Counted from the first letter of the stretch, positions 9,319-62,447 are shown. The stretch is 64,000 nt of DNA from a virus (IMGVR_UViG_3300028571_000011); one strand, 5' to 3'. Notes: generated by a model not told the origin, from the sequence alone. Numbers and translations: made by a program.

Positions 9319-9348
9319 CTTGTACTACGATCACTGCGATAGAATCAA
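9319..9348 (-). promoter_or_regulatory. Putative promoter for the vWA gene (leaderless)
   Basis: TTGATT-N18-TACAAG, then 6 nt to the ATG at 9312. Confidence 0.4.
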
Positions 9349-9364
9349 CAAGCAGGCTTGGCGG

Positions 9365-9394
9365 TTGACGCACCAGCTGGGGCGCTGTAGACCT
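9365..9394 (+). promoter_or_regulatory. Putative sigma70-type promoter (leaderless)
   Basis: TTGACG-N17-TAGACC-T, ATG 6 nt after the hexamer, no Shine-Dalgarno. Confidence 0.55.
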
Positions 9395-9399
9395 CGTGG

Positions 9400-10257
9400 A
9401 TGATCTACACTGTCCACATTGAGAACCCGAAGACCACACCGTCCGTGCATTGGGAATCGGTCAAGTGGCTGAAAACAGTAGAGAAGCTAGAGTTCAAGCC
9501 CGGTCTGAACATTCTCTTCGGCTCCAACGGTACAGGCAAGTCGACCGTTATTTCAGCCATTGCGATGGCTTTCCACTGCTACCAGACCAACTGGCCGGTT
9601 GTCACCAAGCAGAGCGTCAACGCCTTCTTGAAATCGAGTGGCCTCGTCGCCAATGGTCTCACCATCGACCACGACGGTGCTCCTGCCAAGTACCTTGGTC
9701 TCGGAGACATGGACAGCATCCCAGAGAACGCTGTCCGTGTTGACCTCTCCCTGTCGGCACATGGTGCCCACGCTGGTCGACCCGGTCATCTGGTTTCGGC
9801 TGGGCAGAAAACGGTCAGCCGTCTCATCCACTTCCTTCGCAACGACCCCAAGTCTGTTAGCTACAAGCTGAAGTCCAGTCAGGTGACCCCAGAGTTCAAG
9901 CCGGTCTGGACTGCAGCCGTCGAGGCGCTCAAGAACGGCGTAGCCCGCAAGGGAGTTGCCAAGCAGCAGGTCATCCTGCTGGACGAGGTTGACCTCAATC
10001 TTGACTTTGCACACCAAGCAGCGGTCTGGGCACAACTTCGAGAACTTGCCAACGAGGGCAACCACCAGATCATCGTGGCGTCACACTCAGTCTTTGCCGT
10101 CAACGTGCCGGGAGCCCACTACATCGAGACGTCACCCGGCTACCTCAAAGACAGCCGCCAAGCCCTCAAGCTCCTGATGAACGTCGAAGTAGACCAGCCC
10201 ATCAATGGTGTTGCCGTCAAGGCTCCGGTGAAGAAGAAAAGGCTCAGCATTTCATGA
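9400..10257 (+). CDS. ABC-type ATPase (short, no long coiled coil)
   Basis: Walker A GSNGTGKST, signature-like SAGQ, Walker B ILLDE, H-loop ASHS. Confidence 0.85.
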   Translation: MIYTVHIENPKTTPSVHWESVKWLKTVEKLEFKPGLNILFGSNGTGKSTVISAIAMAFHCYQTNWPVVTKQSVNAFLKSSGLVANGLTIDHDGAPAKYLGLGDMDSIPENAVRVDLSLSAHGAHAGRPGHLVSAGQKTVSRLIHFLRNDPKSVSYKLKSSQVTPEFKPVWTAAVEALKNGVARKGVAKQQVILLDEVDLNLDFAHQAAVWAQLRELANEGNHQIIVASHSVFAVNVPGAHYIETSPGYLKDSRQALKLLMNVEVDQPINGVAVKAPVKKKRLSIS

Positions 10258-11432
10258 CGACACGCATCCGATTCCTTCAGACAGGCGACATCCACGTCGG
10301 ACGGAACCGGCTGAGCCTCGGAGAGGCCGGTTCAAACGAACGGAGCAGCAGGCTTCTCGATACACTATATCGAGTTGCACGCGATAACAAGTGTAGCGGC
10401 GTACTCATCACTGGTGATATCTTTGATACAAAGAGTGTTACCAATGCAGAACGTGAGCTTGTAGCCGCCAAGCTCTCAATGTACGCGGGACGAGATGGGA
10501 TTGCGACCTACGTGATCGCTGGCAACCATGACCAAACGACTCGTGGCTCTGGGAACCTAGACTACCTCGCTGAGATCGCAAAGACCGGCGAGGTCGCGAA
10601 CCTCCACGTGTCGTTCGCTGTGCAGGACGTCGTATGGGAAAGCCCAGAGCCCGGACTGTCGATCATCGGTGCACCATGCGAGAAGTCAGAAGACCAGTTC
10701 TGGGTTGAAGAATACGTATCTAAGCTGCCGAAGGACCAGCAGTTTATCTTCATGGGCCATGGAACCATCAAGGGTTGCATGCGCAACGATGCAGGCTACC
10801 GGCCTGATGAAGCCAAGGACAAGAAGCTCAGCCTGACGAAGGCTGCTGAGTCAGCGCCCAACGTGATTTGGTGGGCCTATGGTGACATCCACAAGCGCCA
10901 GAAGCTGCCAACCCTACCAAAGGGATCGAACGGCTGGTACGCAGGCAGCCCGATTCAGATGGACTTCGGCGAGACGGCGGACCGTGGTGTCGTCATTGTT
11001 GCTTTTGACCTCGTGGACGGAGCTTGGGAGTACACCGGCCAGCGGTATGTCCGCATCGACACCCCCGAGAATGGCTTCGCCCCTTTCGTCACGATCATGA
11101 ACGAGGACCAGATTGACGCTACGCCAACCAATGCCCTCATGAAGATCGACAAGGCAGTGACACTCTCCACCGAGAGGATGCAGCAGGTCATTCGTACTTT
11201 CAAGGTTCTGGAGAACAGATCACTTCCCGAGTTACCAGATGATCTGGTGGCTGCCAAGGTCGACGGCGGTGGACTTCTGGAGGCCGTGGACCCGTTGCTG
11301 TCCTCGGCGGATGATGTGGAAGAGGATGTTCTCTCGGCTTTCTCAGCGTCAGATGACGTCGTCATGCTGGAAGCCAAGAGGTCAGTTCGAGCTGCGATTG
11401 ACCGGTTCAGGAATCGAACGTACCTGTCTTGA
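10254..11432 (+). CDS. SbcD/Mre11-like metallophosphoesterase nuclease
   Basis: GDIHVG, GDIFD, GNHD, MGHG and GDIHK motifs; ATGA-coupled to the ATPase. Confidence 0.88.
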   Translation: MTTRIRFLQTGDIHVGRNRLSLGEAGSNERSSRLLDTLYRVARDNKCSGVLITGDIFDTKSVTNAERELVAAKLSMYAGRDGIATYVIAGNHDQTTRGSGNLDYLAEIAKTGEVANLHVSFAVQDVVWESPEPGLSIIGAPCEKSEDQFWVEEYVSKLPKDQQFIFMGHGTIKGCMRNDAGYRPDEAKDKKLSLTKAAESAPNVIWWAYGDIHKRQKLPTLPKGSNGWYAGSPIQMDFGETADRGVVIVAFDLVDGAWEYTGQRYVRIDTPENGFAPFVTIMNEDQIDATPTNALMKIDKAVTLSTERMQQVIRTFKVLENRSLPELPDDLVAAKVDGGGLLEAVDPLLSSADDVEEDVLSAFSASDDVVMLEAKRSVRAAIDRFRNRTYLS

Positions 11433-11445
11433 AGTGAAGCAGTGC

Positions 11446-11475
11446 TTGACTTTCGGTAACGACTCTGGTAAGGAT
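11446..11475 (+). promoter_or_regulatory. Putative sigma70-type promoter (leaderless)
   Basis: TTGACT-N17-TAAGGA-T, ATG at 11481 6 nt after the hexamer. Confidence 0.55.
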
Positions 11476-11480
11476 CACGT

Positions 11481-11663
11481 ATGAGTAATAAACCGCTGGA
11501 GAAGTATGTCATCAACCGACTTGCCAAGGTCGCCGCTAACGACGTCGAAGACGGTGACGAAGTCGCGCTGCGACTTGCACTCAAGCGCCTCGATTTCCTT
11601 GAACGGAAGCTCGCAGCTGCGGATGTGCTGTCCGCTGCCGTGGCGGTTGGTGGCGAGGGTTGA
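11481..11663 (+). CDS. Mini-protein, paralogue 1 of an MSKPL...RLxFLERK..AAD family
   Basis: MSNKPLEK...LKRLDFLERKLAAAD; similar to the ORFs at 11879 and 12088. Confidence 0.75.
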   Translation: MSNKPLEKYVINRLAKVAANDVEDGDEVALRLALKRLDFLERKLAAADVLSAAVAVGGEG

Positions 11664-12293: not shown

Positions 12294-12323
12294 TTGACAG
12301 CTTCAACATGATCTGATAGGAGT
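12294..12323 (+). promoter_or_regulatory. Putative sigma70-type promoter for rIIA/rIIB
   Basis: TTGACA-N17-TAGGAG-T, ATG 6 nt after the hexamer (AGGAG could also act as the Shine-Dalgarno). Confidence 0.5.
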
Positions 12324-12328
12324 TCATT

Positions 12329-14386
12329 ATGATTCCTGCACCAAACAAGAATAGCGAAGTCACTGTCGGGTCATTGATGACCTTCGACTACCACATTGGC
12401 ACGGGCAAGGGAAGCCAAGCCGCAATCATGGAGTTGCTGCGCAACAGCCTGTACACGAACAAAGAGCTTGCGATTCTTCGTGAGTTGACGTTCAACGGCA
12501 TCGACATCCACTGCATGTCTGGCAAGGCGGATGTCCCTGTCAACGTGACACTCCCGACCTACATGCAACCGACGCTGGTCATTCGTGACTACGGGACGGG
12601 GCTCAGCCCAGAGCAGATGGTCATGTACACGGGCTTCGGTGAGACGACAAAGCGAGAGACCGATGACGCCGTTGGCTTCATGGGCATCGGCTCGAAGTCC
12701 CCATTCTGCTACGTGGACTCCTTCCAGATCATCTCATACTGCGGCGGCTTCAAGCGCCTGTATGTGACGGCGATGGATGCCTCCAACTGCGGTAAGCTCC
12801 ACCTCCTGCATGAGGAACCCTCCGACGAGGTCGGGTTGGAGATCCGTGTCCCAGTCCAGACGAAGGACATCTCCAAGTTCGTTGCTGCTGCTCAAAGCTG
12901 CTTCCAGTACACCACGGTTCGTCCGGTCATCAATACCGAGATTCCTGCTCCGTCTTTCGATTGGCGCGGTGAGAGCGGCGGGCTCAAGTTCTACAAGGAT
13001 GGTTCCCCCGTGTGGGAAGTCGTGATGGGTGGGGTCCCGTACCGGTTGGACATCCAGAAGATGGCTGCTTCTGTCCCGAAGCACATGATGGTGAACGTCG
13101 GCGGCGTGTTGTTTGTGCGCAACGGCTCGTGCGATGTCGCAGCTTCTCGTGAGGAAGTTCGGTACACTGAGCGCACGATCGAAACCATCGTTGCTTCTTT
13201 CGATGACATGTTCGCTTGCTTCGGCAAGGAGGCTATCGAAGACGTCGTGCTGAGTGACAAGATCTCCTTCTGGGAGAAGCGTCGTCGGATTGCCCCCATG
13301 GTCAAGCTGATGCCGACGATCCAGATCATTCCAGAGGTGAAGGACCTCCTCAACGACAAGATCGCCGTCAGCAAGGACTGCCCGTTCAAGTTCCATTTCG
13401 TGGAAGTCAGCCGGGGTCATCAAGTGCTTCGGCCCACCGAAACGCCTCGTTTTGACGAAGAGACTCGTATCATCTTCCTCGAAAAGCATTCGACCTACCG
13501 TCCGTACCTCCGAGAGATGAACATCGTTGTCGCTTCGCCTTGCACGGAAGGCGCAGACCTTGATGCCTTCAATGCTTGGCTTGACAGCGTCAAGCTGAGT
13601 GGCGTCCCGGTGCTGGGCAAGCAGTACCTTACTGACCGCTCCATCGCCATTGGCGGGTCGACGTCGTCGAAGACTCGTCGCAACACGGGCAAGACGTTTG
13701 AATTCTCTGGTACGGGTTCCTTCTCGTCTCACGAGGAGAAGGCGTGGATTCCTCAGGACCTTCCTGAAGATGAATCCTTTCTGATCGTCCCCATCGACCG
13801 ATGGAAGTGGGCAGCTGGTCTTTTGTTCAAAAACAACGTCCAGCCTGTGCTGAAGAAGTACAAAGTGCACGACGACATTCCTGTCTTCGGTGTGAAGGTG
13901 AAGTACTATGCTGAGATGCTTGCCAAGCACAAGAATGCATTGACATACAACGACATGCGTCAGGCTGCCAAGGAAGCGTCTCTGGCCAACCCCAAAGATC
14001 TGGAGCGGTGCATTCGTATCGTCGCCACGAAAGGCATGTACCGATTCCGGTCAAACCACGTGGTGGAGAAGGGAACCCCAGCCGGTCATCCTTTGCGGAA
14101 GCTGATCGATACGAGTGCGAACGCCAAAGATGAGGACGTAGCGCTCGGGCAGTGCTTCCAAGAACTCGTGTTCAACGAAAACACCGAAAACACCGTCTAC
14201 GGTAACCACTCCGATGCTTCAATCCTCTTGCCACCCCGCTTGATCGTTGAACACGAAGCTGCGGTCGTCTACGAGCAGTACCCACTCCTCCAACTCATTA
14301 TGGGGAACGTGAACAGCAGTCTTGACTTGAAGCATGTGATCGAATATATGTCCATGGTTGACGAGAAGAAAGCAGGGATCCAATGA
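12329..14386 (+). CDS. rIIA: RIIA-like protein (GHKL/HSP90-type ATPase N-terminus)
   Basis: LRNSLYTNKELAILRELTFNGID, IRDYGTGLS, TKRETDDAVGFMGIGSKSPF; followed by an rIIB-like gene. Confidence 0.88.
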   Translation: MIPAPNKNSEVTVGSLMTFDYHIGTGKGSQAAIMELLRNSLYTNKELAILRELTFNGIDIHCMSGKADVPVNVTLPTYMQPTLVIRDYGTGLSPEQMVMYTGFGETTKRETDDAVGFMGIGSKSPFCYVDSFQIISYCGGFKRLYVTAMDASNCGKLHLLHEEPSDEVGLEIRVPVQTKDISKFVAAAQSCFQYTTVRPVINTEIPAPSFDWRGESGGLKFYKDGSPVWEVVMGGVPYRLDIQKMAASVPKHMMVNVGGVLFVRNGSCDVAASREEVRYTERTIETIVASFDDMFACFGKEAIEDVVLSDKISFWEKRRRIAPMVKLMPTIQIIPEVKDLLNDKIAVSKDCPFKFHFVEVSRGHQVLRPTETPRFDEETRIIFLEKHSTYRPYLREMNIVVASPCTEGADLDAFNAWLDSVKLSGVPVLGKQYLTDRSIAIGGSTSSKTRRNTGKTFEFSGTGSFSSHEEKAWIPQDLPEDESFLIVPIDRWKWAAGLLFKNNVQPVLKKYKVHDDIPVFGVKVKYYAEMLAKHKNALTYNDMRQAAKEASLANPKDLERCIRIVATKGMYRFRSNHVVEKGTPAGHPLRKLIDTSANAKDEDVALGQCFQELVFNENTENTVYGNHSDASILLPPRLIVEHEAAVVYEQYPLLQLIMGNVNSSLDLKHVIEYMSMVDEKKAGIQ

Positions 14387-18143: not shown

Positions 18144-18171
18144 TTGACACGGCAGGGTGATGACGTATCGT
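18144..18171 (+). promoter_or_regulatory. Putative promoter inside the inverted-repeat segment
   Basis: TTGACA-N16-TATCGT. Confidence 0.45.
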
Positions 18172-20899: not shown

Positions 20900-21133
20900 A
20901 TGTCGAAAGAAGATCAAGTCGAGCTTGCAGGTGTCGTGTCAGCAATCCCCGGTGGTGGTTTGGCACGAGTGACTGTGACCGGTGAGAATGGACTGAACTT
21001 TGACGTCATTGCTGTTTTGTCTGGCAAGATGAAGCAGTTCAAGATTCGAGTCGTGGTTGGTGACAAGGTGAAAGTAGCCGTGTCACCCTACGACCACAGC
21101 AAGGGACGAATCACATATCGTGAGCGTTCCTGA
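20900..21133 (+). CDS. infA: Translation initiation factor IF-1
   Basis: MSKEDQVELAGVV...LSGKMKQFKIRVVVGDKVKVAVSPYDHSKGRITYR; GAGGAG Shine-Dalgarno. Confidence 0.93.
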   Translation: MSKEDQVELAGVVSAIPGGGLARVTVTGENGLNFDVIAVLSGKMKQFKIRVVVGDKVKVAVSPYDHSKGRITYRERS

Positions 21134-21146: not shown

Positions 21147-23465
21147 ATGGACGACCCGAGTAACACTGGGTCGGCACTCTCTCCCATGCGGCTGTATCCA
21201 CTGCCATCTTTGTACGACCAGAGTGTTGCCCTCGTAAAGGCTGGCACTCCGGTCGATACTTCTTCTTTCTACCTGAAGAAGTCGATTACGGTACCGTGGT
21301 CCGTACTGCCAACCACATTCATCTTCGAGACGAGCAGACCAGAGCTACCGCACACGTTCACTGTGAATGATGCAGAGTCATTCACAGTCGTACCCGGCTC
21401 AGAGATTGTCTCCCTGCAGTTCGTCCTAGCCAAAGGGACAAACCGCATTGACGTAACATCGCCATCGTATGTCATGCGTGGTGCATGGGGCATCACAACA
21501 CCGTACAGCCGATTCGATACTGTCTCTTTTGATGGGGGGCTGTGGCTTGCTATCGGGTCATCGCTTGGAAGTTCCCCTGTAGAAGGCCCAGACTGGACGC
21601 AGGACGCAGAGACGCTCGGTAGCTATGAAGCTGACAGCTACCTGATTGCAGCCACAGCAGTGGAGACTTGGTTTCGTTCGCTTGGACGAGAGTACTATCT
21701 CACAACCGGACGCAGACTACAGGAGATCGACGAGCAATTCCTCTCCCCTTGGACGACAAGATTCTCGGCGCATCTTCTACCGTTCACAGACCTCTTCCTA
21801 CCATCGCAGATGCCGAGGCTGCATCAGACGAGAATGGCCATCATCGCATCGATGGGCCAGCGGCTTGGCTATGGTGACGGCGTTCTCCGAGTTGCCAGTG
21901 CTCTGTCGTACAGTACTCCTTGGGTGACTCAGTCCAAGCTGTCCGAGTTCTCGGTACCCGGACTGCAATACGACTACCCCGGCGTGACGTCGCACCCAAC
22001 AACAGGTGAAGACCACGGTCGCTTGTTGGACCTATGGTACCCGAATCTATGTTTGGCCAGCAAGCAGGCTCTCATTCAACTGACCCAAACCTTGGGCAGC
22101 ACCGATACTCCCAAGCCCAAGCCGCTGAGCCTAGTCGACTTCGACGACTACCAAATTCTGCTGCGAAGCTCTGGTGGAGACATCGAGGTACACAGAGCAG
22201 ACCCGCTGTCTCCTGAATGTGCAGCTATCGAGTACAACACGTCGTGCGACTCCGAGGTCAGGACATACGCTGTTCTCGACCAGCGTGTCGATGCGATGAT
22301 GAACACCCCGCAGATGCCGTTCGATGAAGTAGTTGAGAATCCACTCAACTTCGGCTTCTGGGATGAAGGCTCAACACTCGACATGAGCGATGGGTCTGGT
22401 TCACCCGGTCTTGGTAGTGGTGACGAGACATTCGACACCGTGGACCCAGACGACCCGTTCGGCACTGGATTCCTAGGCGTATCGCTGAGTGGTCGGCTTG
22501 ACGGTCCTGCCTGTTTGGACAGCAGAGTCCAACGAGGAGAGCGTCTGGTGAAGCACGTCGTTCCTATTACAGGAACGGCAACACCTGAGCCGTCCGAGAT
22601 GACGACTGGAACGAGACTGGTTGTCGACACAGTCAGTGTCGGAGCGCCGACTGCTCTGATCGGAACAGCACGAGTTTGGGCCACAACGAAGAAGCTATTC
22701 CTCTTCCAAGGGGACTACATCCGAGTTGAAAACCCTGACGCGGACATGCGTGTATTGAAGTGCTGGCCACGTTTTGACGTGAACTCCATCATCTCCAAGT
22801 CTGGTGCTGGCGTAGCCTCGACATCCGCTGGGCAGATTGTCGTCACCTTCGGAACACCGTTCTTCGAGTTCCGTCATCAGGGCATGGGCATTCAGGTCAC
22901 AAGTGGCATCACCATCGAGTACGCCAGCATCGCGTTTGTCTCGTCAGACGGCCTCACAGCGACTTTAGCTGGCAACACGGCTATCCCGATGGGCGCAGTC
23001 ACGGTGGACGTCTACTTCCCGCACAGGGATAGGCTCGTGACATATGGCGCACCATTCGCTGGTGACCGAGTCATGGACATTACCTTCACCACCAACCTCG
23101 CCAAGAACCTCGCTGACCAAGAGGTACTTGACCAACGAGATGGTGTTCTGGTGGTTGGTAGCTTCCTCGCTGGTGTCACCACCATTGATGTCGCATCAGA
23201 CATCACTCCCATCCCCGGAGACAAGCTCTTCCTGACATCAGGCAGCTTCATCGAGATCGACTCAGCACTCGACACTGGTCTGAAGCACCACACAACCAAG
23301 CTCACCATTTGGCAGCTGAATCTCATGGCAGCCACAGCGGGTGCTCTCTCGAATGACCAACCACTGTACTCAATATCCACCAACCCGTGTTGGGAGTACG
23401 GCGACCCCATCACCAATCTGACGCTGATCTCAATCACTCCAACGGTTTATCTAGCACTCTCCTGA
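21147..23465 (+). CDS. Baseplate/tail structural protein with a CBM5/12-like module
   Basis: First gene of the structural block; WGITTPYSRFDTVSFDGGLWLA...P..GPDW resembles a chitin-binding type-3 module. Confidence 0.6.
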   Translation: MDDPSNTGSALSPMRLYPLPSLYDQSVALVKAGTPVDTSSFYLKKSITVPWSVLPTTFIFETSRPELPHTFTVNDAESFTVVPGSEIVSLQFVLAKGTNRIDVTSPSYVMRGAWGITTPYSRFDTVSFDGGLWLAIGSSLGSSPVEGPDWTQDAETLGSYEADSYLIAATAVETWFRSLGREYYLTTGRRLQEIDEQFLSPWTTRFSAHLLPFTDLFLPSQMPRLHQTRMAIIASMGQRLGYGDGVLRVASALSYSTPWVTQSKLSEFSVPGLQYDYPGVTSHPTTGEDHGRLLDLWYPNLCLASKQALIQLTQTLGSTDTPKPKPLSLVDFDDYQILLRSSGGDIEVHRADPLSPECAAIEYNTSCDSEVRTYAVLDQRVDAMMNTPQMPFDEVVENPLNFGFWDEGSTLDMSDGSGSPGLGSGDETFDTVDPDDPFGTGFLGVSLSGRLDGPACLDSRVQRGERLVKHVVPITGTATPEPSEMTTGTRLVVDTVSVGAPTALIGTARVWATTKKLFLFQGDYIRVENPDADMRVLKCWPRFDVNSIISKSGAGVASTSAGQIVVTFGTPFFEFRHQGMGIQVTSGITIEYASIAFVSSDGLTATLAGNTAIPMGAVTVDVYFPHRDRLVTYGAPFAGDRVMDITFTTNLAKNLADQEVLDQRDGVLVVGSFLAGVTTIDVASDITPIPGDKLFLTSGSFIEIDSALDTGLKHHTTKLTIWQLNLMAATAGALSNDQPLYSISTNPCWEYGDPITNLTLISITPTVYLALS

Positions 23466-23472
23466 GGTAACA

Positions 23473-23904
23473 ATGAGCTTCGAAACCAAAGCACTCATCA
23501 CTGATAACGCCAGACAGCGCATCGCTGAGGGCTGGGCTACCGGCAAGTCATTCGCGATTGTCGGCTTCTCTCTCGGCAATGAGGGTCATGATACTCTTGA
23601 CCCTCGCACAGCATTGGCACCCGACCCGTCGTTGATGGATTGCCCCGGTGTTGTGTTCGGCCCCAAAGCCATCGCTTCATTCAGTTATGCGAATGACACA
23701 TGCCCTGTGTTTGAGTGCAGGCTTGAGTTTGGCGAAGCAGTTGTGGAGTATTCCTCGCTCTGCTTGATTGCTCAGATCCTCTACAGCCCAGTGCCGGGTG
23801 ACCCAGAAGTCGACACGACCTTCCTGTTCGCTGTCGTCAACTTCCCATTGAGGTCCAAGACTGACCTTGAGGAGTTGGTCATCAATGTCGGTGTCAGCCG
23901 CTGA
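23473..23904 (+). CDS. Tail collar/fibre-attachment-like protein
   Basis: LITDNARQRIA...FAIVGFSLGNEG resembles tail-fibre N-terminal attachment domains; paralogue at 32245. Confidence 0.6.
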   Translation: MSFETKALITDNARQRIAEGWATGKSFAIVGFSLGNEGHDTLDPRTALAPDPSLMDCPGVVFGPKAIASFSYANDTCPVFECRLEFGEAVVEYSSLCLIAQILYSPVPGDPEVDTTFLFAVVNFPLRSKTDLEELVINVGVSR

Positions 23905-23975
23905 AAAGGAAGACCGGGCATAACTAATGGCAAGGGGAGTCACTCTTCGGAGTTACTTCCCCGAAGGTCCCTACC

Positions 23976-26528: not shown

Positions 26529-26559
26529 TAACGCCTTCGACAAATTCACAGGATAACAA

Positions 26560-31026: not shown

Positions 31027-31034
31027 GGTACACG

Positions 31035-31481: not shown

Positions 31482-31484
31482 AGG

Positions 31485-32910: not shown

Positions 32911-33386
32911 GTGAGCAACCTGCCAGCAGGTGTCACACGCACTGCTTCTTTGCCGTCAGTGAGGGTGGTGTACAGTTCGATGAGCCCGTCAGCGATCAGC
33001 CCATCAGCAATGGACTGGCGAGCTTCGGTATCGCGTGGAAGACCAGACGACTTCCAGTGGCGGACGAAGAAGCGGAAGTTGATGTACCCGTCGGCGAATC
33101 GCTCTTCAGCCCGCAGGAGTTCCTCGATGAAGAGCTTCTGTGGCGAGCCACCCGGATGTACCAGTGTCTGCGGCACCTTCTTCTCGATGACCATCATGCC
33201 ATACTCGTCACCCTCTAGCGGGTGGAAGACACGAATGGTGATCTCCGATAGACGTACGAGAAGGTCAACGTTTGGAGATACTTCATAGTATTCGTCCCCA
33301 TCATCGTTGACACCTATTGTTGTGAGTAGCTGAATGCTCTTAGTCATGACACACGGTACACCCTTGCCGACCGATAGGTCAACCAC
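32907..33386 (-). CDS. Hypothetical protein (alternative start 33347)
   Basis: Follows the sigma gene; C-terminus resembles a winged helix. Confidence 0.6.
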   Translation of the reverse strand: MVDLSVGKGVPCVMTKSIQLLTTIGVNDDGDEYYEVSPNVDLLVRLSEITIRVFHPLEGDEYGMMVIEKKVPQTLVHPGGSPQKLFIEELLRAEERFADGYINFRFFVRHWKSSGLPRDTEARQSIADGLIADGLIELYTTLTDGKEAVRVTPAGRLLT

Positions 33387-34073
33387 TTAATCACTAGCCA
33401 ATACCATCAAACGCTTCTTCAAAGAACTCATTATTCTTTCTTCGTAAAGACGAACACTCTCTCTGGAGTGACCAACCATGAGACCAACTTCCTTCAGTGA
33501 GACGGGCTCCTCAGCAAGGAGTCTGTGTATGATGATTGCTTTGACGAGTTCAGCATCCCTGAGTCCGACAGTGACACTTTCACGCTTGTAGTCATTCCAG
33601 AAGGAGGACAGCACGCGTTCAAGCATCTCTTTGTTAGATGTTCTCTCAGCCGTTTCATCAGGCATCTCGATACCATCGTCAGCAACTAGGTCTTCAACAC
33701 AACGGCCTCCTTCACCGTCGTCAGCTGTGATGGGCTCGTGCAGCCGCACCATACGACCTCGGCCACCCGGTGATGTACCAGCCTTGTTCTCCTTACCACG
33801 GCGACGACCTACCACTGCTCTGATCCAGTAGATCGCGTAGGCGACAAGGGAGTCTGACTTCTCAGGGTTGAAACCCATGATGGCTCGGATGAGGCCGAAC
33901 ACGGCTTCATTCACCATATCATCATAGTCACTGGTTGAGTTGTGAAAGAACTTTTTGAGGGTGTAGTGGATGACCTGCATGTGGTCCACAACGAGTTTGT
34001 TTCTGGCTGCGATGTCACCGGACTGCGCCTTCCGGCACAATTCCATAACCTCGTTGCTCTTCTCGTCTGCCAT
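33387..34073 (-). CDS. Phage sigma-70 family RNA polymerase sigma factor
   Basis: Region 1.2/2 ARNKLVVDHMQVI, DDMVNEAVFGLIRAIMGFNP, LVAYAIYWIR; region 4 SLKEVGLMVGHSRESVRLYE. The ORF is open to 34163; start MADEK chosen. Confidence 0.9.
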   Translation of the reverse strand: MADEKSNEVMELCRKAQSGDIAARNKLVVDHMQVIHYTLKKFFHNSTSDYDDMVNEAVFGLIRAIMGFNPEKSDSLVAYAIYWIRAVVGRRRGKENKAGTSPGGRGRMVRLHEPITADDGEGGRCVEDLVADDGIEMPDETAERTSNKEMLERVLSSFWNDYKRESVTVGLRDAELVKAIIIHRLLAEEPVSLKEVGLMVGHSRESVRLYEERIMSSLKKRLMVLASD

Positions 34074-34107
34074 AGGGACCTTCGGGTGAACAGGCCGGTA
34101 CCCAAGA

Positions 34108-37119: not shown

Positions 37120-37172
37120 AGAGGCTGACCCTCTCATAAACAGAGCCGTAGCTCGGAACCTGAGAACAGGAG

Positions 37173-40475: not shown

Positions 40476-40478
40476 CGA

Positions 40479-41963: not shown

Positions 41964-41967
41964 TGAC

Positions 41968-45665: not shown

Positions 45666-45674
45666 GGTTCATCG

Positions 45675-46127
45675 ATGTCATACACTGTACGATTCAATGA
45701 TGGGGACATCGAGTTCGGCTCCGGTGGAGACCAGATAATGGTCACTGGTGCCGAGAAGGCAGCACAAGACCTGCTTGACGAGGTCCTGCTGCCCTACGAT
45801 GCCGCTACCGACAGTGGAAACGAGATGTTCGAAGCTGACGGTAGCTTCTCAGCTGTTGCTTCGTCTCCGTCAGTGGGCACAAGCTACATCAACACGTGCC
45901 TGCGCTCAGCTGCAGCAAGGCTCATGCGGAAGCAAGCTGCCTCGTCTGGGACAGACGCAGACGAGGTCATCAGGAAGGTGAACAATGTTGTTGTTCGCCC
46001 CATCGCTGGGGACGCGACGTCTTACGCGTTCCTGCTTGCTGTGGAGTCCAACAGCAGGAAAATCGCTCTGGCCCGTGCCATCAGTATGAAGCACACGGGA
46101 ACCCTGCGGGTTGACTCACTCGGCTAG
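45675..46127 (+). CDS. gp25/GpW-like baseplate wedge (sheath initiator)
   Basis: DGDIEFG...VTGAEKAAQDLL pattern, size, and position before baseplate J. Confidence 0.6.
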   Translation: MSYTVRFNDGDIEFGSGGDQIMVTGAEKAAQDLLDEVLLPYDAATDSGNEMFEADGSFSAVASSPSVGTSYINTCLRSAAARLMRKQAASSGTDADEVIRKVNNVVVRPIAGDATSYAFLLAVESNSRKIALARAISMKHTGTLRVDSLG

Positions 46128-46315
46128 CACAATGCTTTCACCGCTTCAGCTTCTGTCAACCCTGTCAAGATTGACGTCTTACTCTTCAAGCGAACACTGT
46201 AACGACCGGAGCCCACAGCACACGCAACGCCCTTGTCGGACTCGACAAAGGACAACTTGGAACCGGTCTTGTCAGCCACGACGAAAGTATAGATCTCACA
46301 CTTTTCTGCAGTCAT
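46124..46315 (-). CDS. Small antisense-oriented insert gene (63 aa)
   Basis: Own promoter 6 nt upstream of the ATG at 46315; convergent with the gp25-like gene. Confidence 0.6.
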   Translation of the reverse strand: MTAEKCEIYTFVVADKTGSKLSFVESDKGVACAVGSGRYSVRLKSKTSILTGLTEAEAVKALC

Positions 46316-46321
46316 ACCGGG

Positions 46322-46349
46322 ATAATACGCCCTCAACACTCTGGGTCAA
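46322..46349 (-). promoter_or_regulatory. Putative promoter (leaderless)
   Basis: TTGACC-N16-TATTAT-N6-ATG. Confidence 0.55.
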
Positions 46350-46370
46350 CTCTTTTTGAGGTAAGCTATT

Positions 46371-47798
46371 ATGCCACGTACACGAAGCGAAATCATCAAG
46401 TCAATCAAGACCGACATCGAGGCAGCAAGCCCTCAAGTCAGGGTCGACGCTGATAAGGGGCCATTCTTCCACCTATCTGCCACGGGTGTGGCAGGAGTGT
46501 TGTCTGACTCATCGTCACAGATCGAGAGGCTTGCGCAGCTGTCCACGCTCATGTTCCCAGCCGTGGCGACAGACCAAGAGGCACAGGCTATGGCCCGTGC
46601 CTTCGGCCTCTCCACAGCGGCTGCAGGCTTCTCTGGTGGTATCGCCTACGCCTTCACTTCGAGCCGACCATCTGGCTCTGACTTGATGACGGTCTCTGAA
46701 GGCACCTCGTTCTCAACAGGAACTCGCGGTGTTGTGTTCGAAGCTGTGGAGACCAGAAGTCTTACTGCGGGGAACGCCGACGCCTACTACAACCCTGCCA
46801 CCCGGCGCTACGAGTTGCCAGTTCGCGTCAGGGCAACATCGGCTGGTACACTGGGCAACATCGCAGCCAGAACCATCACCAGCGTACAGCTGTCCGGGTT
46901 CGATGGTGCGACCAACCTTGCTGCTTTCCGTGGTGGTACTGAGGCTCAGTCGGTTGCGACGCTGTACCGTCGCATCCAACAGCGTCTAGTCGGGCTTGAC
47001 AACTTCTCGCGGGGTGGTCTGGTCTCACGAGTCCAGAAATACGACGTTGACCGCGTGCAGTCGGTCGCTCTCACGTACTCAAACGAGTACCCCAACCTGT
47101 TCTACCGTCTGCCTGACAGGCAAGCCATTGACGTGTGGGTCTTGGGTACGCCGATTGAGGAAATCGCCACTGAGACATTCACAGCTTCGGCTGGGCAAAC
47201 GACATTCACCCTTAGCGTAGGCCCAGTGTTGTTCCTGTCGTCTGTTCTGGTGAATGGCTCCTCTGTTGCTGCCTCCTTGACCATGGACGAGGGTGCTTCC
47301 CTTGGAAGGTCATCGCAGGAGTCTTCACAGGTCACCACAGCTGCACTTGTTGCTGGGGACGTAGTGGACATCACCTACGGCTACGATGACCTCATTAAGG
47401 GGATTCAGAAAGACATTGATGGTTTGCTGAACTCCTCAACTGGGTCGTTGTTCGCCACGGATGTCTTGGTTCGCTACCCCAAGACAATCCCAGTGGTGGT
47501 TCGCGTTTCTGGTACGGTGCTTGGATCATTCGACCGAACAACTGTCGAGCAGGAAGTATTGATTGCAGTGGGTGACTACTTGGCCAATGGCCTTGAAGGC
47601 TCTCCACAGCAGGGTGGTGTCAGGAATCTCAAGGAGTGCCGCGATGCCATCAAGTCCACAGTGCCCGGTATCAGTCTGCTAGAGATACCTGAGTTCTGCC
47701 GCAAGAGTGTGGGTGGTATCGTAGAGGTCATCGACATTCCACGGAACGCGCAGCTGGTCGTTAGCAACAGCGCAGACTTGGTAGTCTCGTTCACATGA
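46371..47798 (+). CDS. Baseplate J-like protein
   Basis: VRVRATSAGTLGN, DGATNLAAFRGGTEAQSVATLYRRI motif. Confidence 0.85.
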   Translation: MPRTRSEIIKSIKTDIEAASPQVRVDADKGPFFHLSATGVAGVLSDSSSQIERLAQLSTLMFPAVATDQEAQAMARAFGLSTAAAGFSGGIAYAFTSSRPSGSDLMTVSEGTSFSTGTRGVVFEAVETRSLTAGNADAYYNPATRRYELPVRVRATSAGTLGNIAARTITSVQLSGFDGATNLAAFRGGTEAQSVATLYRRIQQRLVGLDNFSRGGLVSRVQKYDVDRVQSVALTYSNEYPNLFYRLPDRQAIDVWVLGTPIEEIATETFTASAGQTTFTLSVGPVLFLSSVLVNGSSVAASLTMDEGASLGRSSQESSQVTTAALVAGDVVDITYGYDDLIKGIQKDIDGLLNSSTGSLFATDVLVRYPKTIPVVVRVSGTVLGSFDRTTVEQEVLIAVGDYLANGLEGSPQQGGVRNLKECRDAIKSTVPGISLLEIPEFCRKSVGGIVEVIDIPRNAQLVVSNSADLVVSFT

Positions 47799-50893: not shown

Positions 50894-50922
50894 TCGATAC
50901 CACGATACGCCCACTAAGTCAA
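50894..50922 (-). promoter_or_regulatory. Putative sigma70-type promoter
   Basis: TTGACT-N17-TATCGA-T, followed by a 9-bp-stem hairpin (50860-50885) abutting the Shine-Dalgarno. Confidence 0.55.
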
Positions 50923-53349: not shown

Positions 53350-53378
53350 ACCTTACCGTGACCAACAGATCAAGTCAA
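53350..53378 (-). promoter_or_regulatory. Putative sigma70-type promoter with ~210-nt leader
   Basis: TTGACT-N17-TAAGGT; next convincing start codon at 53132. Confidence 0.55.
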
Positions 53379-55531: not shown

Positions 55532-55603
55532 TACTTCTTCTTTCGTTGTCTGGCGTGTGATGTGTTTTGACCACAACTCGACGTTGTGGTCAATGGGCTG
55601 GTG

Positions 55604-56122: not shown

Positions 56123-56376
56123 GTGCCCCTCCGAAGGACAGAAACTGTGGCATCTTTCCAATGGGACTTCTTGACGAAGTCTGGACCACCCATCGATACG
56201 ATGGCCTTCTTGAGTTCGTTCTCTGTGACGGCGACGGTGTACACCTCGCCCTCGTACTGGAGGAGTTGGACACCTTCGTTGTCCTGAGGACGCTGGTAGT
56301 GCTCGACTTCCTTCAGGTCAGCGCCGAGGTACTCGGCCAACCACCGCCGCTTGCTCCAAGCCCTTTTCGTTTTCAT
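56119..56376 (-). CDS. Hypothetical protein (85 aa)
   Basis: ATGA-coupled on both sides. Confidence 0.65.
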   Translation of the reverse strand: MKTKRAWSKRRWLAEYLGADLKEVEHYQRPQDNEGVQLLQYEGEVYTVAVTENELKKAIVSMGGPDFVKKSHWKDATVSVLRRGT

Positions 56377-56786
56377 CCATTCTCCAATGGCAGCAGATCG
56401 TGCATCAGCTGGCGGTCGTAGCGCCGGGTGGCATCACCCATGAGCCTGAGCGCCTCTTGGAGCTTGGTATCCAAGTCGCAGGCTGTCTCGCAGAAGCGCT
56501 GTCTGGGCATATAAGCCAGTAGTAGTAGACTTTCCTGTAAGGACCCTTCCAAGATCTTGCGCATCAGCCCGATGTCTTGCGAGTCGACGGCGACGCTACC
56601 ACTGCATTCGTGGGGAGTGTCGAATGAGTTTCGAATGGCATTGACAATGCCCGATGTGTCCGCAGCTTTGCACTTGTGGTCGTAGTGGCCTTTCGCACAG
56701 GTGGAAAGGACACTCAGATCTTCCTGAGTGAAGATCAAGTAGGCTTTGACGATAACGTAGCCGGGGTCCTGCTTGTCGATGTGCAT
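56373..56786 (-). CDS. Hypothetical protein (137 aa)
   Basis: Preceded by a promoter 7 nt upstream. Confidence 0.65.
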   Translation of the reverse strand: MHIDKQDPGYVIVKAYLIFTQEDLSVLSTCAKGHYDHKCKAADTSGIVNAIRNSFDTPHECSGSVAVDSQDIGLMRKILEGSLQESLLLLAYMPRQRFCETACDLDTKLQEALRLMGDATRRYDRQLMHDLLPLENG

Positions 56787-56793
56787 GCGTGAT

Positions 56794-56822
56794 CTTGTAC
56801 CAGATCACTTCGAAGAAGCCAA
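56794..56822 (-). promoter_or_regulatory. Putative promoter (leaderless) overlapped by a hairpin
   Basis: TTGGCT-N17-TACAAG-N7-ATG; gtgatct-N6-agatcac inverted repeat spans the -10. Confidence 0.5.
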
Positions 56823-60099: not shown

Positions 60100-60271
60100 G
60101 GCTGCTCTTTCATCGTTCGATGTTTGGGCCGGGAGAGTGCAACGTCAATCCGCCGAAGCAGAGCCTTGCCTTCTCGTGCCCTCTTGGGCTCAAGAAGGTT
60201 GATCGTCGGTGATGTTGCTTCACGTCTCACGTACGCTCGCGCTTCAGTCAGCACTTCACGCACTTCACGGT

Positions 60272-60769: not shown

Positions 60770-60933
60770 GTGATATCTCCTTAGACGAGGATTTCGCGGT
60801 AGCGGATGCCATAGTGGCCGATATTCCAGCACGCGTTGGTGATGGCGTAGTGCCGGTCCATGGCTCGCTTCACGTCAAGGACGTCGACACCGGGAGCACT
60901 GAACTTGTGGGCTTGGTGGTAGCGCTTCATGTC

Positions 60934-61167
60934 TTACTCTTCCATTTCACAGGCAGCGCGACCTGCGTCGTAGGCAGCCCTGCCGTGTGCAACAAGGTCA
61001 GCTGCTGATCCACCACCGTGGTTACCCATCATGATGAAGAACGCCTCCCGTGCAACAATCGCCTTGGCGACGTCTTCACCGAAGCACTTCTTCCACTGCT
61101 TTCCGTATGAATCCTCCACACGCTCTTTGATCAACTTCCCGATCGACTTGTAGTGGTTAGTGCTCAT
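60934..61167 (-). CDS. Hypothetical protein (77 aa)
   Basis: Start MSTNHY 7 nt after a promoter hexamer. Confidence 0.65.
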   Translation of the reverse strand: MSTNHYKSIGKLIKERVEDSYGKQWKKCFGEDVAKAIVAREAFFIMMGNHGGGSAADLVAHGRAAYDAGRAACEMEE

Positions 61168-61174
61168 ACGCAAA

Positions 61175-61203
61175 CACTTATCACAGATCACTGGAGCAGT
61201 CAA
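61175..61203 (-). promoter_or_regulatory. Putative promoter (leaderless); -35 lies in a 16-bp inverted repeat
   Basis: TTGACT-N17-TAAGTG-T; inverted repeat 61188-61203 / 61211-61226. Confidence 0.55.
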
Positions 61204-61230
61204 GTTATGATTGACTGCTCCAGTGACAAT

Positions 61231-62172
61231 TCAGTCGTTGCGGAGACCAAGAGCCATCAATTCCTTGGTGGACAGCTGGAGTCCACGGCGAGCGCAGTAG
61301 GACTGGGGGTTGGCCACGCCGTAGAACTTCGCAGCCTTGGCGAGGGTGGTGTTGCCGATGCTGCCGAGCCACATGTCGACAGGACCGTTGCTCCTGACCT
61401 TCTCCAAGACCATCTCGTACTTCCCATCACCGAGGTACTTGCGGACCTCACGGATGACGGTGGTGACCTCGCCCCACTTGCGGTCGAGCGCTTTCATGTC
61501 ACCGGCGTACCAGACGCCGTTGCGCTTCATGTAGGGCATGCCACCGAGGACGCGGACTTCGTCCACCAAGTTGGTGGGGACGTCGAGACCCTTGCGGTAG
61601 TTGTACCCTTTCTCCATCCAAGAGCCCATGCTCTGGGTGTTCTCGCGCCAGCCTTCGGGACGTTCAGCGTTGGGCTTGCGCACGGACTTGGGTGCCGAGC
61701 AGAGAATCCCAGTGACGGGATTCACGTACAGGTCACCCCACTTCCCCGAACGGTAGCTGGTCAGAGGGACGTAGCCACGGACACCGCTGTAGCGGCTGGT
61801 GTTGGGCACCGTGGGGGTCTTGCCATCCATGACGACGTCGAAGCGCACCATGCCCTGACGCAGGTGCTGGATGAGGTGGTACTGGGTGGCCGAGTTCAGG
61901 TTGAGATTCTCACGGATCTCGGAGTAGACCTTGTCCCAGCTGCGACCGACAGCCTTACGGAGGAAGCCGAGGAGGGGAGTGAAGTACTCACTCAACTCCT
62001 TGCCGCCACTGTAGTGGCTGTTGTAGCTGCCACGACCCATGGTCTGCTTCGAGGGAAGCGTCTCAGCGTCGGTGGCCTTCATCTTGGCACGGGCAGCACG
62101 GCGAGACTGAGCACCATCCCTCGAACCACGGCGAGGGCGCTCACAGAGCAACGTAGCGATATCGTTCCGCAT
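61231..62172 (-). CDS. Basic hypothetical protein (313 aa, MRxD...ERPR type)
   Basis: Very strong codon bias; MRNDIATLLCERPRRG...TPLLGFLRKAVGRSWDKVYSEI. I recall similar bacterial hypotheticals but cannot name the family. Confidence 0.8.
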   Translation of the reverse strand: MRNDIATLLCERPRRGSRDGAQSRRAARAKMKATDAETLPSKQTMGRGSYNSHYSGGKELSEYFTPLLGFLRKAVGRSWDKVYSEIRENLNLNSATQYHLIQHLRQGMVRFDVVMDGKTPTVPNTSRYSGVRGYVPLTSYRSGKWGDLYVNPVTGILCSAPKSVRKPNAERPEGWRENTQSMGSWMEKGYNYRKGLDVPTNLVDEVRVLGGMPYMKRNGVWYAGDMKALDRKWGEVTTVIREVRKYLGDGKYEMVLEKVRSNGPVDMWLGSIGNTTLAKAAKFYGVANPQSYCARRGLQLSTKELMALGLRND

Positions 62173-62361
62173 TGGATTCTTTCAACCCAGTGCGCCGGTA
62201 GCAACACCACTTGGTCCGTATGACCAAGCAACATCACGACCTATCAAGGCGCATGAGTAACTATTTCTTCGAAAGAAGAAATGTAAAACCTATGCATGCG
62301 GCTGGGGTCTTGATGAACATGGCGAACCTCGGTTGAAAGATCTACTGCTCTGGCGTGCTCT

Positions 62362-62447
62362 CTTATAGGGTGCTCGTTTGTCGCTGTCAACTGGTGATCT
62401 TGTGGGTCAATCTGATCTTGACTTCCAATGTGCACTGTGTTAGGAGT
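62362..62447. promoter_or_regulatory. Divergent promoter pair at the strand switch
   Basis: Minus strand TTGACA (62390-62385)-N17-TATAAG; plus strand TTGACT (62418-62423)-N17-TAGGAG-T. Confidence 0.6.

What the first reader, a model, noticed from the sequence alone, without database searches (positions are those of the whole stretch)
9319..62447. Recurring promoter class lacking the -7 T, often driving leaderless mRNAs
Seen: nine TTG(A/G)Cn-N17-TA sites at operon starts: 9365+ TAGACC-T, 11446+ TAAGGA-T, 12294+ TAGGAG-T, 50922- TATCGA-T, 53378- TAAGGT-G, 56822- TACAAG-A, 61203- TAAGTG-T, 62390- TATAAG-A, 62418+ TAGGAG-T. Eight of nine lack the normally near-invariant -7 T, and six carry T one base later (TA-N4-T). 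Seven genes (9312, 9400, 11481, 12329, 46315, 56786, 61167) have ATG only 6-7 nt after a -10 hexamer, at the expected +1. Several also have TGATC 3-5 nt upstream of the TA. Known: promoters lacking -7 T are typical of CarD-dependent systems such as many Alphaproteobacteria. Inference: either a host clue, or the phage sigma (33387..34073) reads a shifted -10, and the phage relies heavily on leaderless translation. Caveats: sites were picked by eye, and TAAGGA/TAGGAG can double as a Shine-Dalgarno.
Basis: partly seen in the sequence, partly recalled or inferred. Interest (0 to 1): 0.7.

Follow-up and report, generated by a model that had tools for sequence, protein, structure and literature searches.

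The report
Phage early promoters firing at start codons
An uncultured large phage starts its early and middle operons with one kind of bacterial-type promoter that lacks a normally conserved base and often sits so that the RNA should begin at the start codon; this is a known kind of signal and may hint at the host.

Summary
All nine sites are real, and the two-block signal is far beyond chance. TA lies exactly 17 nt after 9 of 31 intergenic TTGAC words against 5 of 227 coding ones (p 2e-6). I count 14 such promoters in the window and 22 with the next 27 kb. -12T and -11A are invariant. -7 is T in only 5 of 22 (G in 10). TGn occurs in 9, all of them promoters without -7T. In 10 of 22, an ATG that opens a gene lies 5-7 nt after the -10.

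A relative at about 90% identity keeps both hexamers (1 change in 84 positions) while the spacers drift (14 in 119). The sites precede early and middle genes (recombination nuclease, rIIA, rIIB, arrays of small ORFs), not structural operons. They are therefore most likely read by the host's primary sigma, not the phage sigma.

A 54% GC Bdellovibrionota-labelled MAG, linked to the phage only weakly, uses the same grammar. Its tRNA promoters are TTGACx-N17-TAnnnn with -7T in 4 of 18, it has many leaderless-geometry genes, and it encodes CdnL. E. coli shows no such peak.

No RNA data could be obtained, so start sites are inferred. This scan already reported the same cassette on the adjoining DNA of this genome (e1-1841002).

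The parts
9365..9402 (+). Promoter TTGACG-N17-TAGACC, 6 nt, then ATG 9400 of the AAA_23/SbcC-like and Metallophos nuclease operon. Leaderless geometry, no SD.
   Evidence: The relative L014 keeps both hexamers and the 6-nt gap, with 2 spacer changes. Gene start called independently.
9310..9348 (-). Divergent promoter TTGATT-N18-TACAAG, 6 nt, then ATG 9312 (VWA-like protein). Leaderless geometry.
   Evidence: In relative L014 the -35 is TTGACT, TACAAG is kept, there are 5 spacer changes and the GATC is lost.
11446..11483 (+). Promoter TTGACT-N17(TGn)-TAAGGA, 6 nt, then ATG 11481 (60-aa protein). The -10 doubles as an SD-like word for read-through RNA.
   Evidence: Hexamers conserved in L014, with changes in the spacer and discriminator.
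12294..12331 (+). Promoter TTGACA-N17(TGn, GATC)-TAGGAG, 6 nt, then ATG 12329 of rIIA.
   Evidence: L014 is identical except for GATC to GACC in the spacer.
14322..14350 (+). Promoter TTGACT-N17(GATC)-TATATG inside the 3' end of rIIA, 32 nt before rIIB (14383). Leadered.
   Evidence: Hexamers conserved in L014.
18144..18171 (+). Promoter TTGACA-N16-TATCGT (has -7T), with a 29-nt leader and AGGAG SD before GTG 18201.
   Evidence: Identical in L014.
33345..33382 (-). Promoter TTGACC-N18-TACCGT (has -7T), 5 nt, then ATG 33347. It drives the three small genes downstream of the sigma gene.
46313..46349 (-). Promoter TTGACC-N16-TATTAT (canonical -10), 6 nt, then ATG 46315 (63-aa ORF inside the structural module).
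   Evidence: The relatives L019, L020 and L021 keep the hexamers and spacing, with 2 spacer changes and 1 discriminator change.
50894..50922 (-). Promoter TTGACT-N17(TGn)-TATCGA, with a leader of about 40 nt to ATG 50849 (GAGGAGG SD). A hairpin lies upstream.
   Evidence: The relative L019 has TTGACT-N17-TACAGA here, reached through an indel, so a TA hexamer at 17 nt is kept while the sequence turned over.
53350..53378 (-). Promoter TTGACT-N17-TAAGGT (has -7T), preceded by mirror GTCAA-N7. A leader of about 210 nt runs to ATG 53132.
56784..56822 (-). Promoter TTGGCT-N17(TGn, GATC)-TACAAG, 7 nt, then ATG 56786. A 7-bp hairpin lies directly upstream, giving a terminator-promoter composite.
61165..61225 (-). 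Promoter TTGACT-N17(TGn, GATC)-TAAGTG, 7 nt, then ATG 61167. The -35 is the 3' arm of a perfect palindrome with 15-bp arms (61189-61225).
   Evidence: The public call starts this gene at the TTG of the -35. The ORF from ATG 61167 scores as coding.
62362..62390 (-). Promoter TTGACA-N17-TATAAG, with a leader of about 190 nt to ATG 62172 of a 313-aa minus-strand gene.
   Evidence: The minus-strand ORF has the better codon score (0.25 against 0.06) and is the one called in another assembly.
62418..62446 (+). Divergent promoter TTGACT-N17(TGn)-TAGGAG with mirror GTCAA-N7 upstream, and a leader of about 35 nt to ATG 62482.
33387..34073 (-). Phage sigma factor gene (region 2 clear, region 4 weak). 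It is not preceded by a promoter of this class with a TA hexamer.

Best explanation
These are the phage's early and middle promoters, read by the host RNA polymerase with its primary (sigma-70-type) sigma factor.

Recognition rests on a near-consensus -35 (TTGACt), a 17-bp spacer, often TGn, and the invariant -12T/-11A. The -7 position is free: G in 10, T in 5, A in 4 and C in 3 of 22. The phage therefore follows a host promoter grammar in which -7T is dispensable. This is known from Alphaproteobacteria, where CarD/CdnL compensates, and I saw it here in a Bdellovibrionota-labelled MAG. The consensus -35 and TGn probably make the phage promoters strong without -7T.

Transcription should start 6-7 nt after the hexamer. 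In 10 of 22 promoters that base is the A of the ATG of the first gene, so the first cistron would be translated from a leaderless mRNA. Genes further down the operons use ordinary Shine-Dalgarno sites.

Where such a promoter lies inside an operon (11446, 12294), the SD-like -10 (TAAGGA, TAGGAG) could also serve read-through transcripts.

Shown: motif, spacing, placement, conservation and the match to the MAG. Inferred: which sigma reads them, the start sites, leaderless translation and the host.
For: - **Two-block motif with sharp 17-nt spacing, confined to non-coding DNA and correctly oriented:**
- **Composition of 22 sites:** -12T and -11A in 22 of 22, -7T in 5 of 22, TGn in 9 of 22 and only in promoters without -7T (Fisher 0.054).
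- **Start-codon geometry:** ORF-opening ATGs peak at 5-7 nt after the hexamer (9 there against 0.13 per distance background, Poisson 4e-10). Seven of the ten starts were called independently. All ten are ATG, and 6 of 10 lack an SD core against 29 of 104 other genes.
- **Conservation:** in a relative at about 90% identity the hexamers show 1 change in 84 positions, against 14 in 119 for spacers. The hexamers-versus-rest comparison gives Fisher 0.01. At 50922 the sequence turned over but TA at 17 nt was kept.
- **Gene class:** the sites precede the nuclease, rIIA, rIIB and small-ORF arrays. None heads a structural operon.
- **A standard sigma-70 scan that demands -7T sees no enrichment:** 7 found against 6.8 expected.
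- **Candidate host lineage, MAG G002:** its tRNA promoters are TTGACx-N17-TAnnnn with -7T in 4 of 18. ATG at 6-8 nt after TTG-N16-18-TA occurs 83 times against 25 expected, with no excess in E. coli (13 against 18). It has a stand-alone CdnL-size gene.
- **Literature:** PMC7703639, PMC8407463, PMC2988021.
Against: - There is no transcript evidence.
- Two of the ten 'leaderless' sites have perfect SD words as their -10, and two more hold weak ones.
- Several sites are paralogous cassettes. They share AAGCAGTGC upstream, GTGATCTG in the spacer and cgtATG at the start, so the counts are not independent. Family descent could inflate the -7G, -6T and GATC signals.
- The phage sigma has a weak region 4, so it cannot be excluded by sequence.
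- The host link is weak. The IF1 similarity is 48-57%, and the Atlas look-up gave other phyla. The bin that holds a related phage contig is 45-49% GC against 60% for that contig. No spacer-like match was found.
- The MAG prefers C or T at -7 and lacks TGn and -6T enrichment, unlike the phage.
Confidence: 0.62

Rival explanations
1. The promoters are real and host-read, but the genes are not translated from leaderless RNA. Start sites would lie elsewhere, or the proteins would be made mainly from read-through transcripts that use the SD-like -10 words or upstream starts.
For: TAAGGA and TAGGAG sit at ideal SD distance, and 4 of 10 sites hold an SD core. The public gene caller chose upstream GTG or TTG starts for two genes. 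No RNA data.
Against: Six of ten have no SD in a genome where 72% of genes do. The 5-7 nt peak is very sharp. The alternative GTG and TTG starts lie inside the promoter hexamers. Two of the sites (9365 and 9348) are divergent operon starts with no upstream transcript to read through.
Confidence: 0.15
2. The deviant -10, the T at -6 and the GATC reflect descent from one mobile promoter cassette (PeSL-like) that spread by recombination. They would then not reflect a host promoter grammar.
For: Shared flanks (AAGCAGTGC, GTGATCTG, cgtATG) in 11446, 56822, 61203, 70750 and 12294. Hairpins sit directly upstream at 50922, 53378, 56822 and 61203. Gene content differs between conserved cassettes in relatives. 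The earlier scan note counts about 17 copies next door.
Against: The -10 hexamers are diverse (16 different words in 22 sites). Sites without the shared flanks (9365, 62390, 67410, 77727, 79467) also lack -7T. An unrelated bacterial MAG shows the same relaxed -7.
Confidence: 0.1
3. The phage sigma (33387-34073), not the host primary sigma, reads this class. It might use a -10 with the T displaced by one base (TA-N4-T).
For: T at -6 in 12 of 22 sites (binomial 0.002 uncorrected), and T at -7 or -6 in 16 of 22. The sigma has region 2 and a weak region 4.
Against: The class heads the earliest-looking gene arrays and is missing from structural operons. The -35, the 17-bp spacer, TGn and -12T/-11A are the primary-sigma signature (PMC2988021). 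Small phage sigmas beside a clamp gene usually serve late genes (established knowledge of T4 gp55/gp45). The -6T signal is partly due to paralogous cassettes.
Confidence: 0.08
4. Chance matches plus Shine-Dalgarno words picked by eye. There is no promoter class.
For: The sites were first picked by eye, and the whole-window enrichment of the bare pattern is only about twofold.
Against: Placement, spacing, orientation, start-codon geometry and conservation are each significant in unsupervised tests.
Confidence: 0.03

Closest known systems
Sigma-70 promoters lacking -7T in Alphaproteobacteria, activated by CarD/CdnL (Henry et al. 2020, PMC7703639; Myers et al. 2021, PMC8407463)
   Same: Conserved TTG in the -35, a 17-bp spacer, conserved -12T/-11A, about 6 bp to the start, and -7T in a minority of promoters. 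In one tested promoter an extended -10 can stand in for -7T.
   Different: These are phage promoters with a near-perfect -35 and TGn in 41%, against about 15% in R. sphaeroides. G rather than an even mix is commonest at -7. The host is unknown and may not be an alphaproteobacterium. CarD dependence is untested.
T4 early promoters (UP/-35/TGn/-10, read by unmodified host holoenzyme; Hinton 2010, PMC2988021)
   Same: Many copies of a very strong host-type promoter in front of early gene arrays. -35 plus TGn are used together. rIIA and rIIB have their own promoters.
   Different: No A/T-rich UP region (52% A+T at -60 to -38). The -10 is not TATAAT-like and lacks -7T. T4 early mRNAs are leadered.
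PeSL promoter-early stem-loop cassettes of T4-type phages (PMC2839356, PMC4122927)
   Same: Composite hairpin-plus-early-promoter units lie between small variable genes. Relatives differ by gene indels between conserved cassettes.
   Different: Only 4-5 of 22 sites have a significant upstream hairpin. In three, the hairpin arm is a mirror copy of the -35 itself. A role in recombination was not tested.
Leaderless phage and bacterial mRNAs (lambda cI from PRM, from my own knowledge; leaderless-rich taxa such as Actinobacteria, Deinococcus and Caulobacter, from my own knowledge)
   Same: The -10 ends 6-7 nt before an AUG that is both +1 and the start codon. AUG is used throughout.
   Different: Here it is the usual design for first cistrons of lytic early and middle operons of a large phage. 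Actinobacteria are an unlikely host, because their promoters keep -7T and lack the TTG -35 (PMC8407463).

Membership tests
Primary-sigma (sigma-70-type) -35/-10 promoters | -35 hexamer close to TTGACA | tested here: met
   20 of 22 sites have TTGACn. The other two are TTGGCT and TTGATT, and the latter is TTGACT in the relative.
Primary-sigma (sigma-70-type) -35/-10 promoters | Spacer of 17 +/- 1 bp to a hexamer starting with TA (-12T, -11A) | tested here: met
   Spacer is 17 in 14 sites, 16 in 3 and 18 in 5. There is a sharp TA peak at 17 in intergenic sites only.
Primary-sigma (sigma-70-type) -35/-10 promoters | T at -7 (present in 90-99% of promoters outside Alphaproteobacteria, PMC7703639) | tested here: not met
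   5 of 22 sites (4 of 14 in the window). The probability of so few if the true rate were 0.9 is 2e-13.
Primary-sigma (sigma-70-type) -35/-10 promoters | Transcription start 6-7 nt downstream of the hexamer | not testable with these tools
-7T-poor, CarD/CdnL-assisted promoter grammar (alphaproteobacterial type) | -7T in under half of promoters, with a conserved TTG -35 and 17-bp spacer | tested here: met
   23% -7T. Compare 30-43% in PMC7703639.
-7T-poor, CarD/CdnL-assisted promoter grammar (alphaproteobacterial type) | Host encodes CarD/CdnL and its own promoters show the same grammar | tested here: inconclusive
   The host is unknown. Five Bdellovibrionota-labelled MAGs with the phage-like IF1 each have a 152-184-aa CarD_TRCF_RID frame. 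In G002, -7T is 4 of 18 at tRNA promoters and about 47% at leaderless promoters. The link between phage and MAG is weak.
-7T-poor, CarD/CdnL-assisted promoter grammar (alphaproteobacterial type) | Activation by CarD/CdnL | not testable with these tools
   This needs in vitro transcription.
Leaderless mRNA | 5' end of the RNA at the A of the AUG | not testable with these tools
   Geometry only: ATG lies 5-7 nt after the -10 in 10 of 22 promoters.
Leaderless mRNA | AUG start codon and no Shine-Dalgarno dependence | tested here: inconclusive
   ATG in 10 of 10. An SD core is absent in 6 of 10, against 28% of other genes (Fisher 0.066). Two sites have strong SD words as their -10.
T4-type early promoters / PeSL cassettes | A/T-rich UP element upstream of the -35 | tested here: not met
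   Mean A+T is 52% at -60 to -38, near the intergenic background.
T4-type early promoters / PeSL cassettes | Stem-loop joined to an early promoter between variable small genes | tested here: inconclusive
   Significant hairpins (z of -2 or lower) at 50922, 53378, 56822, 61203 and 72231 only. Gene indels lie between cassettes in relatives.
Promoters of a phage-encoded sigma factor | Found before late or structural operons and absent from the earliest genes | tested here: not met
   The class heads early and middle genes. The structural blocks 21147-32244 and 35647-47798 have none at an operon start.

The most novel reading that the evidence does not exclude
The polymerase that reads these sites accepts a -10 element stretched by one base (TA-N4-T). 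A T at -6 would take the place of -7T in the non-template-strand pocket. This would be a mode of -10 recognition not described for primary sigma factors, used by the host sigma or by the phage sigma.
Probability: 0.06. Interest if true: 0.8.

Novelty: new member of a known kind. Interest (0 to 1): 0.42.

Why it matters
- **Annotation:** promoter finders that demand -7T miss every site but one. Gene callers also extend two first genes into their own promoters, so annotation of such phages is systematically off.
- **Host clue for uncultured phages:** the combination of a strong TTG -35, a relaxed -7 and leaderless first cistrons is a host-grammar fingerprint. It argues against hosts that resemble E. 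coli, Bacillus, Actinobacteria or Betaproteobacteria. It fits -7T-poor, CarD/CdnL-bearing, leaderless-rich lineages.
- **Side result:** a Bdellovibrionota-labelled lake MAG shows that grammar. This suggests that the 'alphaproteobacterial' promoter peculiarity is wider than the taxa with TSS data. It rests on one MAG and on sequence geometry only.

Tried and rejected
- **Close cultured relatives:** none by megablast. Protein matches to known phages are below 30% identity. The contig is not in viral contigs.
- **Wasted homologue search:** the early protein 56373-56786 has no relatives at all.
- **Register shift of the -10 by one base** (spacer 18, xANNNT): rejected, because it puts G, C or T at -11 in most sites.
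- **TGATC as an essential operator:** rejected as essential. Two of three homologous sites in the relative at about 90% identity have lost the GATC.
- **Late-promoter motif upstream of structural operons:** no shared word found.
- **TTGAC-anchored -7 statistics on whole genomes:** too noisy. The E. coli control gave only 7 sites. I replaced this with tRNA-anchored and ATG-anchored sets.
- **Host by ACP homologues:** no hit.
- **Host by CRISPR-like matches in five MAGs:** chance-level only.
- **Host by Atlas neighbours of IF1:** mixed phyla.
- **Host by bin membership of a related contig:** weakened by a 12-15 point GC gap.
- **Alphaproteobacterial host from the tmRNA:** the phage tmRNA is one-piece with an ANDN-type tag, which is not diagnostic.

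Full report
**What the DNA is.** The window is identical to positions 65508-129507 of a 162,949-bp metagenome contig (ENA ERZ27250436), and near-identical copies occur in other lake assemblies. It is a large uncultured phage. It encodes an intein-bearing primase-helicase, a family A polymerase, a gp46/47-like nuclease, rIIA and rIIB, a small sigma factor beside a clamp-like gene, tail and baseplate genes, and an IF1 homologue. Just downstream lie about 22 tRNA genes, a tmRNA and Ro60. It has no close cultured relative. I took gene calls from the public annotation of those contigs. I also extended the sequence 27 kb beyond the window end.

- All nine sites are at the stated places.
- The bare pattern is only about twofold enriched over shuffles (15 against 6.7). 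Its placement is not random, however.
- TA follows TTGAC at a 17-nt spacer in 9 of 31 intergenic occurrences against 5 of 227 coding ones (Fisher 2e-6), with no excess at neighbouring spacings other than 16-19.
- An unsupervised dyad scan ranks TTGAC-N18-TA as the top signal enriched in non-coding DNA, apart from tRNA-derived ones (p 1e-8).
- A classical sigma-70 scan that demands -7T finds nothing beyond chance (7 against 6.8) and recovers only the 46349 site.

**The full set.** Using the -35 and spacing alone, I find 14 promoters in the window and 22 with the downstream extension.
- Further sites with -7T: 18144+ (TATCGT), 33382- (TACCGT) and 46349- (TATTAT).
- Further sites without it: 9348- (TTGATT-N18-TACAAG) and 14322+ (TATATG, inside the end of rIIA, ahead of rIIB).
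- -12T and -11A are invariant.
- -7 is G in 10, T in 5, A in 4 and C in 3.
- The next base is T in 12 of 22 (binomial 0.002, uncorrected).
- TGn precedes the hexamer in 9, all of them promoters without -7T (Fisher 0.054).
- GATC begins 7-9 nt before the hexamer in 7 (p 1.5e-9).
- The -60 to -38 region is not A/T-rich (52%).
- Three sites carry a mirror GTCAA-N7 just before the -35. At 61203 this extends to a perfect palindrome with 15-bp arms.

Several sites share flanks (AAGCAGTGC before the -35, GTGATCTG in the spacer, cgtATG at the start). They are therefore paralogous cassettes and not independent samples. This weakens the -6T, -7G and GATC statistics.

**Start-codon geometry.** For every TTGACN-N16-18-TA in the 91 kb, I asked where an ATG that opens an ORF of at least 60 codons lies. 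Nine fall at 5-7 nt after the hexamer, none at 8-30 nt, and the background is 0.13 per distance (Poisson 4e-10).
- The ten genes start at 9400, 9312, 11481, 12329, 33347, 46315, 56786 and 61167, and beyond the window at 70785 and 79501.
- Seven of these starts are the ones the public gene calls chose.
- For 46315 and 61167 the caller picked a GTG or TTG that lies inside the promoter.
- 70785 was left uncalled in this assembly.
- All ten are ATG.
- Six of ten lack any SD core, against 28% of the other 104 genes (Fisher 0.066).
- TAAGGA (11446) and TAGGAG (12294) are perfect SD words at ideal distance. Both promoters lie inside operons, so these hexamers could serve as the -10 in DNA and as the SD in read-through RNA. 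That is an inference.

**Conservation.** A relative with 93% identical rIIA and 88% identical baseplate protein has seven alignable promoters. The two hexamers show 1 change in 84 positions, and that change improves TTGATT to TTGACT. The spacers show 14 in 119 and the discriminators 3 in 42. The hexamers-versus-rest comparison gives Fisher 0.01.
- The non-canonical hexamers TAGACC, TACAAG, TAAGGA, TAGGAG and TATATG are all kept, as is the distance to the ATG.
- Two of three GATC words are lost, so GATC is not essential.
- At 50922 an indel has replaced TACAGA by TATCGA while keeping a TA hexamer 17 nt from the -35.
- Gene content between cassettes differs among relatives. Four early-block sites have a hairpin directly upstream. 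Both features recall PeSL cassettes of T4-type phages (PMC2839356, PMC4122927).

**Who reads them.** The sites head the recombination-nuclease operon, rIIA, rIIB, the arrays of small ORFs on the minus strand (50-62 kb), the divergent block from 62.4 kb, the genes downstream of the sigma gene, and the tRNA region. No structural operon starts with one.
- A near-consensus -35, a 17-bp spacer, TGn and -12T/-11A are the contacts of primary sigma regions 4, 3 and 2 (PMC2988021).
- The phage sigma has a clear region 2 and only a weak region 4. It sits beside a clamp-like gene, the layout of late-gene systems such as T4 gp55/gp45 (established knowledge).
- I therefore assign the class to the host primary sigma. 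Reading by the phage sigma stays possible but unlikely.

**The missing -7T as a host clue.** Published TSS surveys find -7T in 90-99% of promoters outside Alphaproteobacteria and in 30-43% within them. Alphaproteobacteria keep the TTG -35, while Actinobacteria and Betaproteobacteria lose the TTG but keep -7T. CarD compensates for the missing base, and an extended -10 can do so too (PMC7703639, PMC8407463). By this measure the phage (23% -7T, strong TTG -35) fits the alphaproteobacterial type. It does not fit the E. coli, Bacillus, actinobacterial or betaproteobacterial types.

**A candidate lineage.**
Identity is 48-57%.
- A related phage contig (60% identical baseplate protein) is binned in a fifth such MAG. 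That bin link is weak, because the MAG is 45-49% GC and the phage contig 60%.
- An Atlas look-up of the IF1 gave mixed phyla.
- No CRISPR-like match was found.
- All five MAGs have a stand-alone CdnL-size gene.

In the 54% GC MAG (G002):
- tRNA genes are preceded by TTGACx-N17-TAnnnn, 11-24 nt upstream in most cases, with -7T in 4 of 18.
- ORF-opening ATGs lie 6-8 nt after TTG-N16-18-TA 83 times against 25 expected in 800 kb. 300 kb of E. coli gives 13 against 18.
- In that ATG-anchored set -7T is about 47%, and neither TGn nor -6T is enriched.

This lineage therefore shares the relaxed -7 and the leaderless habit. The frequent TGn, G at -7 and T at -6 are peculiar to the phage cassettes. The host remains unproven.

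**Standing.** Each component is known: a host-type phage early promoter, the -7T-poor grammar and leaderless first cistrons. The same cassette was already reported by this scan in the adjoining window of this genome (e1-1841002). Its first copy is my site at window-equivalent 70750, and I confirm its mirror-image -35 in three sites here.

New in this report:
- the demonstration that -7 is unconstrained across the class;
- the conservation test;
- the objective start-codon histogram;
- the match to a CdnL-bearing, leaderless-rich bacterial MAG.

All start sites, the reading sigma and the host are inferences that need RNA 5'-end data and biochemistry.

Noticed in passing
window 23961-23972 (+) and 34074-34085 (-): The exact 12-mer CCGAAGGTCCCT occurs twice. 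It lies 3 nt before the ATG of the 850-aa structural gene and abuts the ATG of the sigma gene. It may be a shared translational operator or RBS context. No further copies with 2 or fewer mismatches stand out above chance.
   Followed up: partly
window 39781-39818 (+): TTGACC-N17-TATCAG, 6 nt, then an in-frame ATG (39816) inside the 1089-aa tail protein, about 70 codons before its M23 peptidase domain. It could be an internal leaderless start giving a free peptidase domain, or chance (about 0.1 such hits expected).
   Followed up: partly
window 61207-62223: The public gene call on the plus strand (338 aa) is probably wrong. The minus-strand ORF 61231-62172 (313 aa) has a much better codon score and is the one called in another assembly of the same phage.
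   Followed up: yes
window 20900-21133 (+): The phage encodes an IF1 homologue of an unusual type (PGGG, SGKMKQFK) that it shares with IF1 of Bdellovibrionota-labelled MAGs. This is of possible interest for a phage that starts many mRNAs without a leader.
   Followed up: partly
window 61189-61225: A perfect palindrome with 15-bp arms and a 7-nt loop lies just after the stop of the 313-aa gene. Its 3' arm is the -35 of the next promoter. Shorter GTCAA-N7-TTGAC mirrors occur at 53378 and 62418.
   Followed up: partly
window 55567-55593: TTGACCACAAC-gtcga-GTTGTGGTCAA is an 11-bp-arm palindrome in the 72-nt gap before ATG 55531. It has no TA hexamer at promoter spacing and may be a terminator or operator.
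   Followed up: no
whole window: GATC is under-represented genome-wide (observed/expected 0.66), as are CTAG and AATT. Yet GATC sits at a fixed place in the spacer of 7 promoters.
   Followed up: partly
window 234-3368 (+): The primase-helicase carries an intein with a LAGLIDADG endonuclease domain (precomputed Pfam hits Intein_splicing, LAGLIDADG_3 and DnaB_C).
   Followed up: no
G002 (loci L032-L107): A 2.3-Mb, 54% GC lake MAG labelled Bacteriovorax stolpii appears rich in leaderless genes and has -7T in only about a quarter to a half of its recognisable promoters. I did not find TSS data for this phylum in the paper library.
   Followed up: partly
   Followed up: yes
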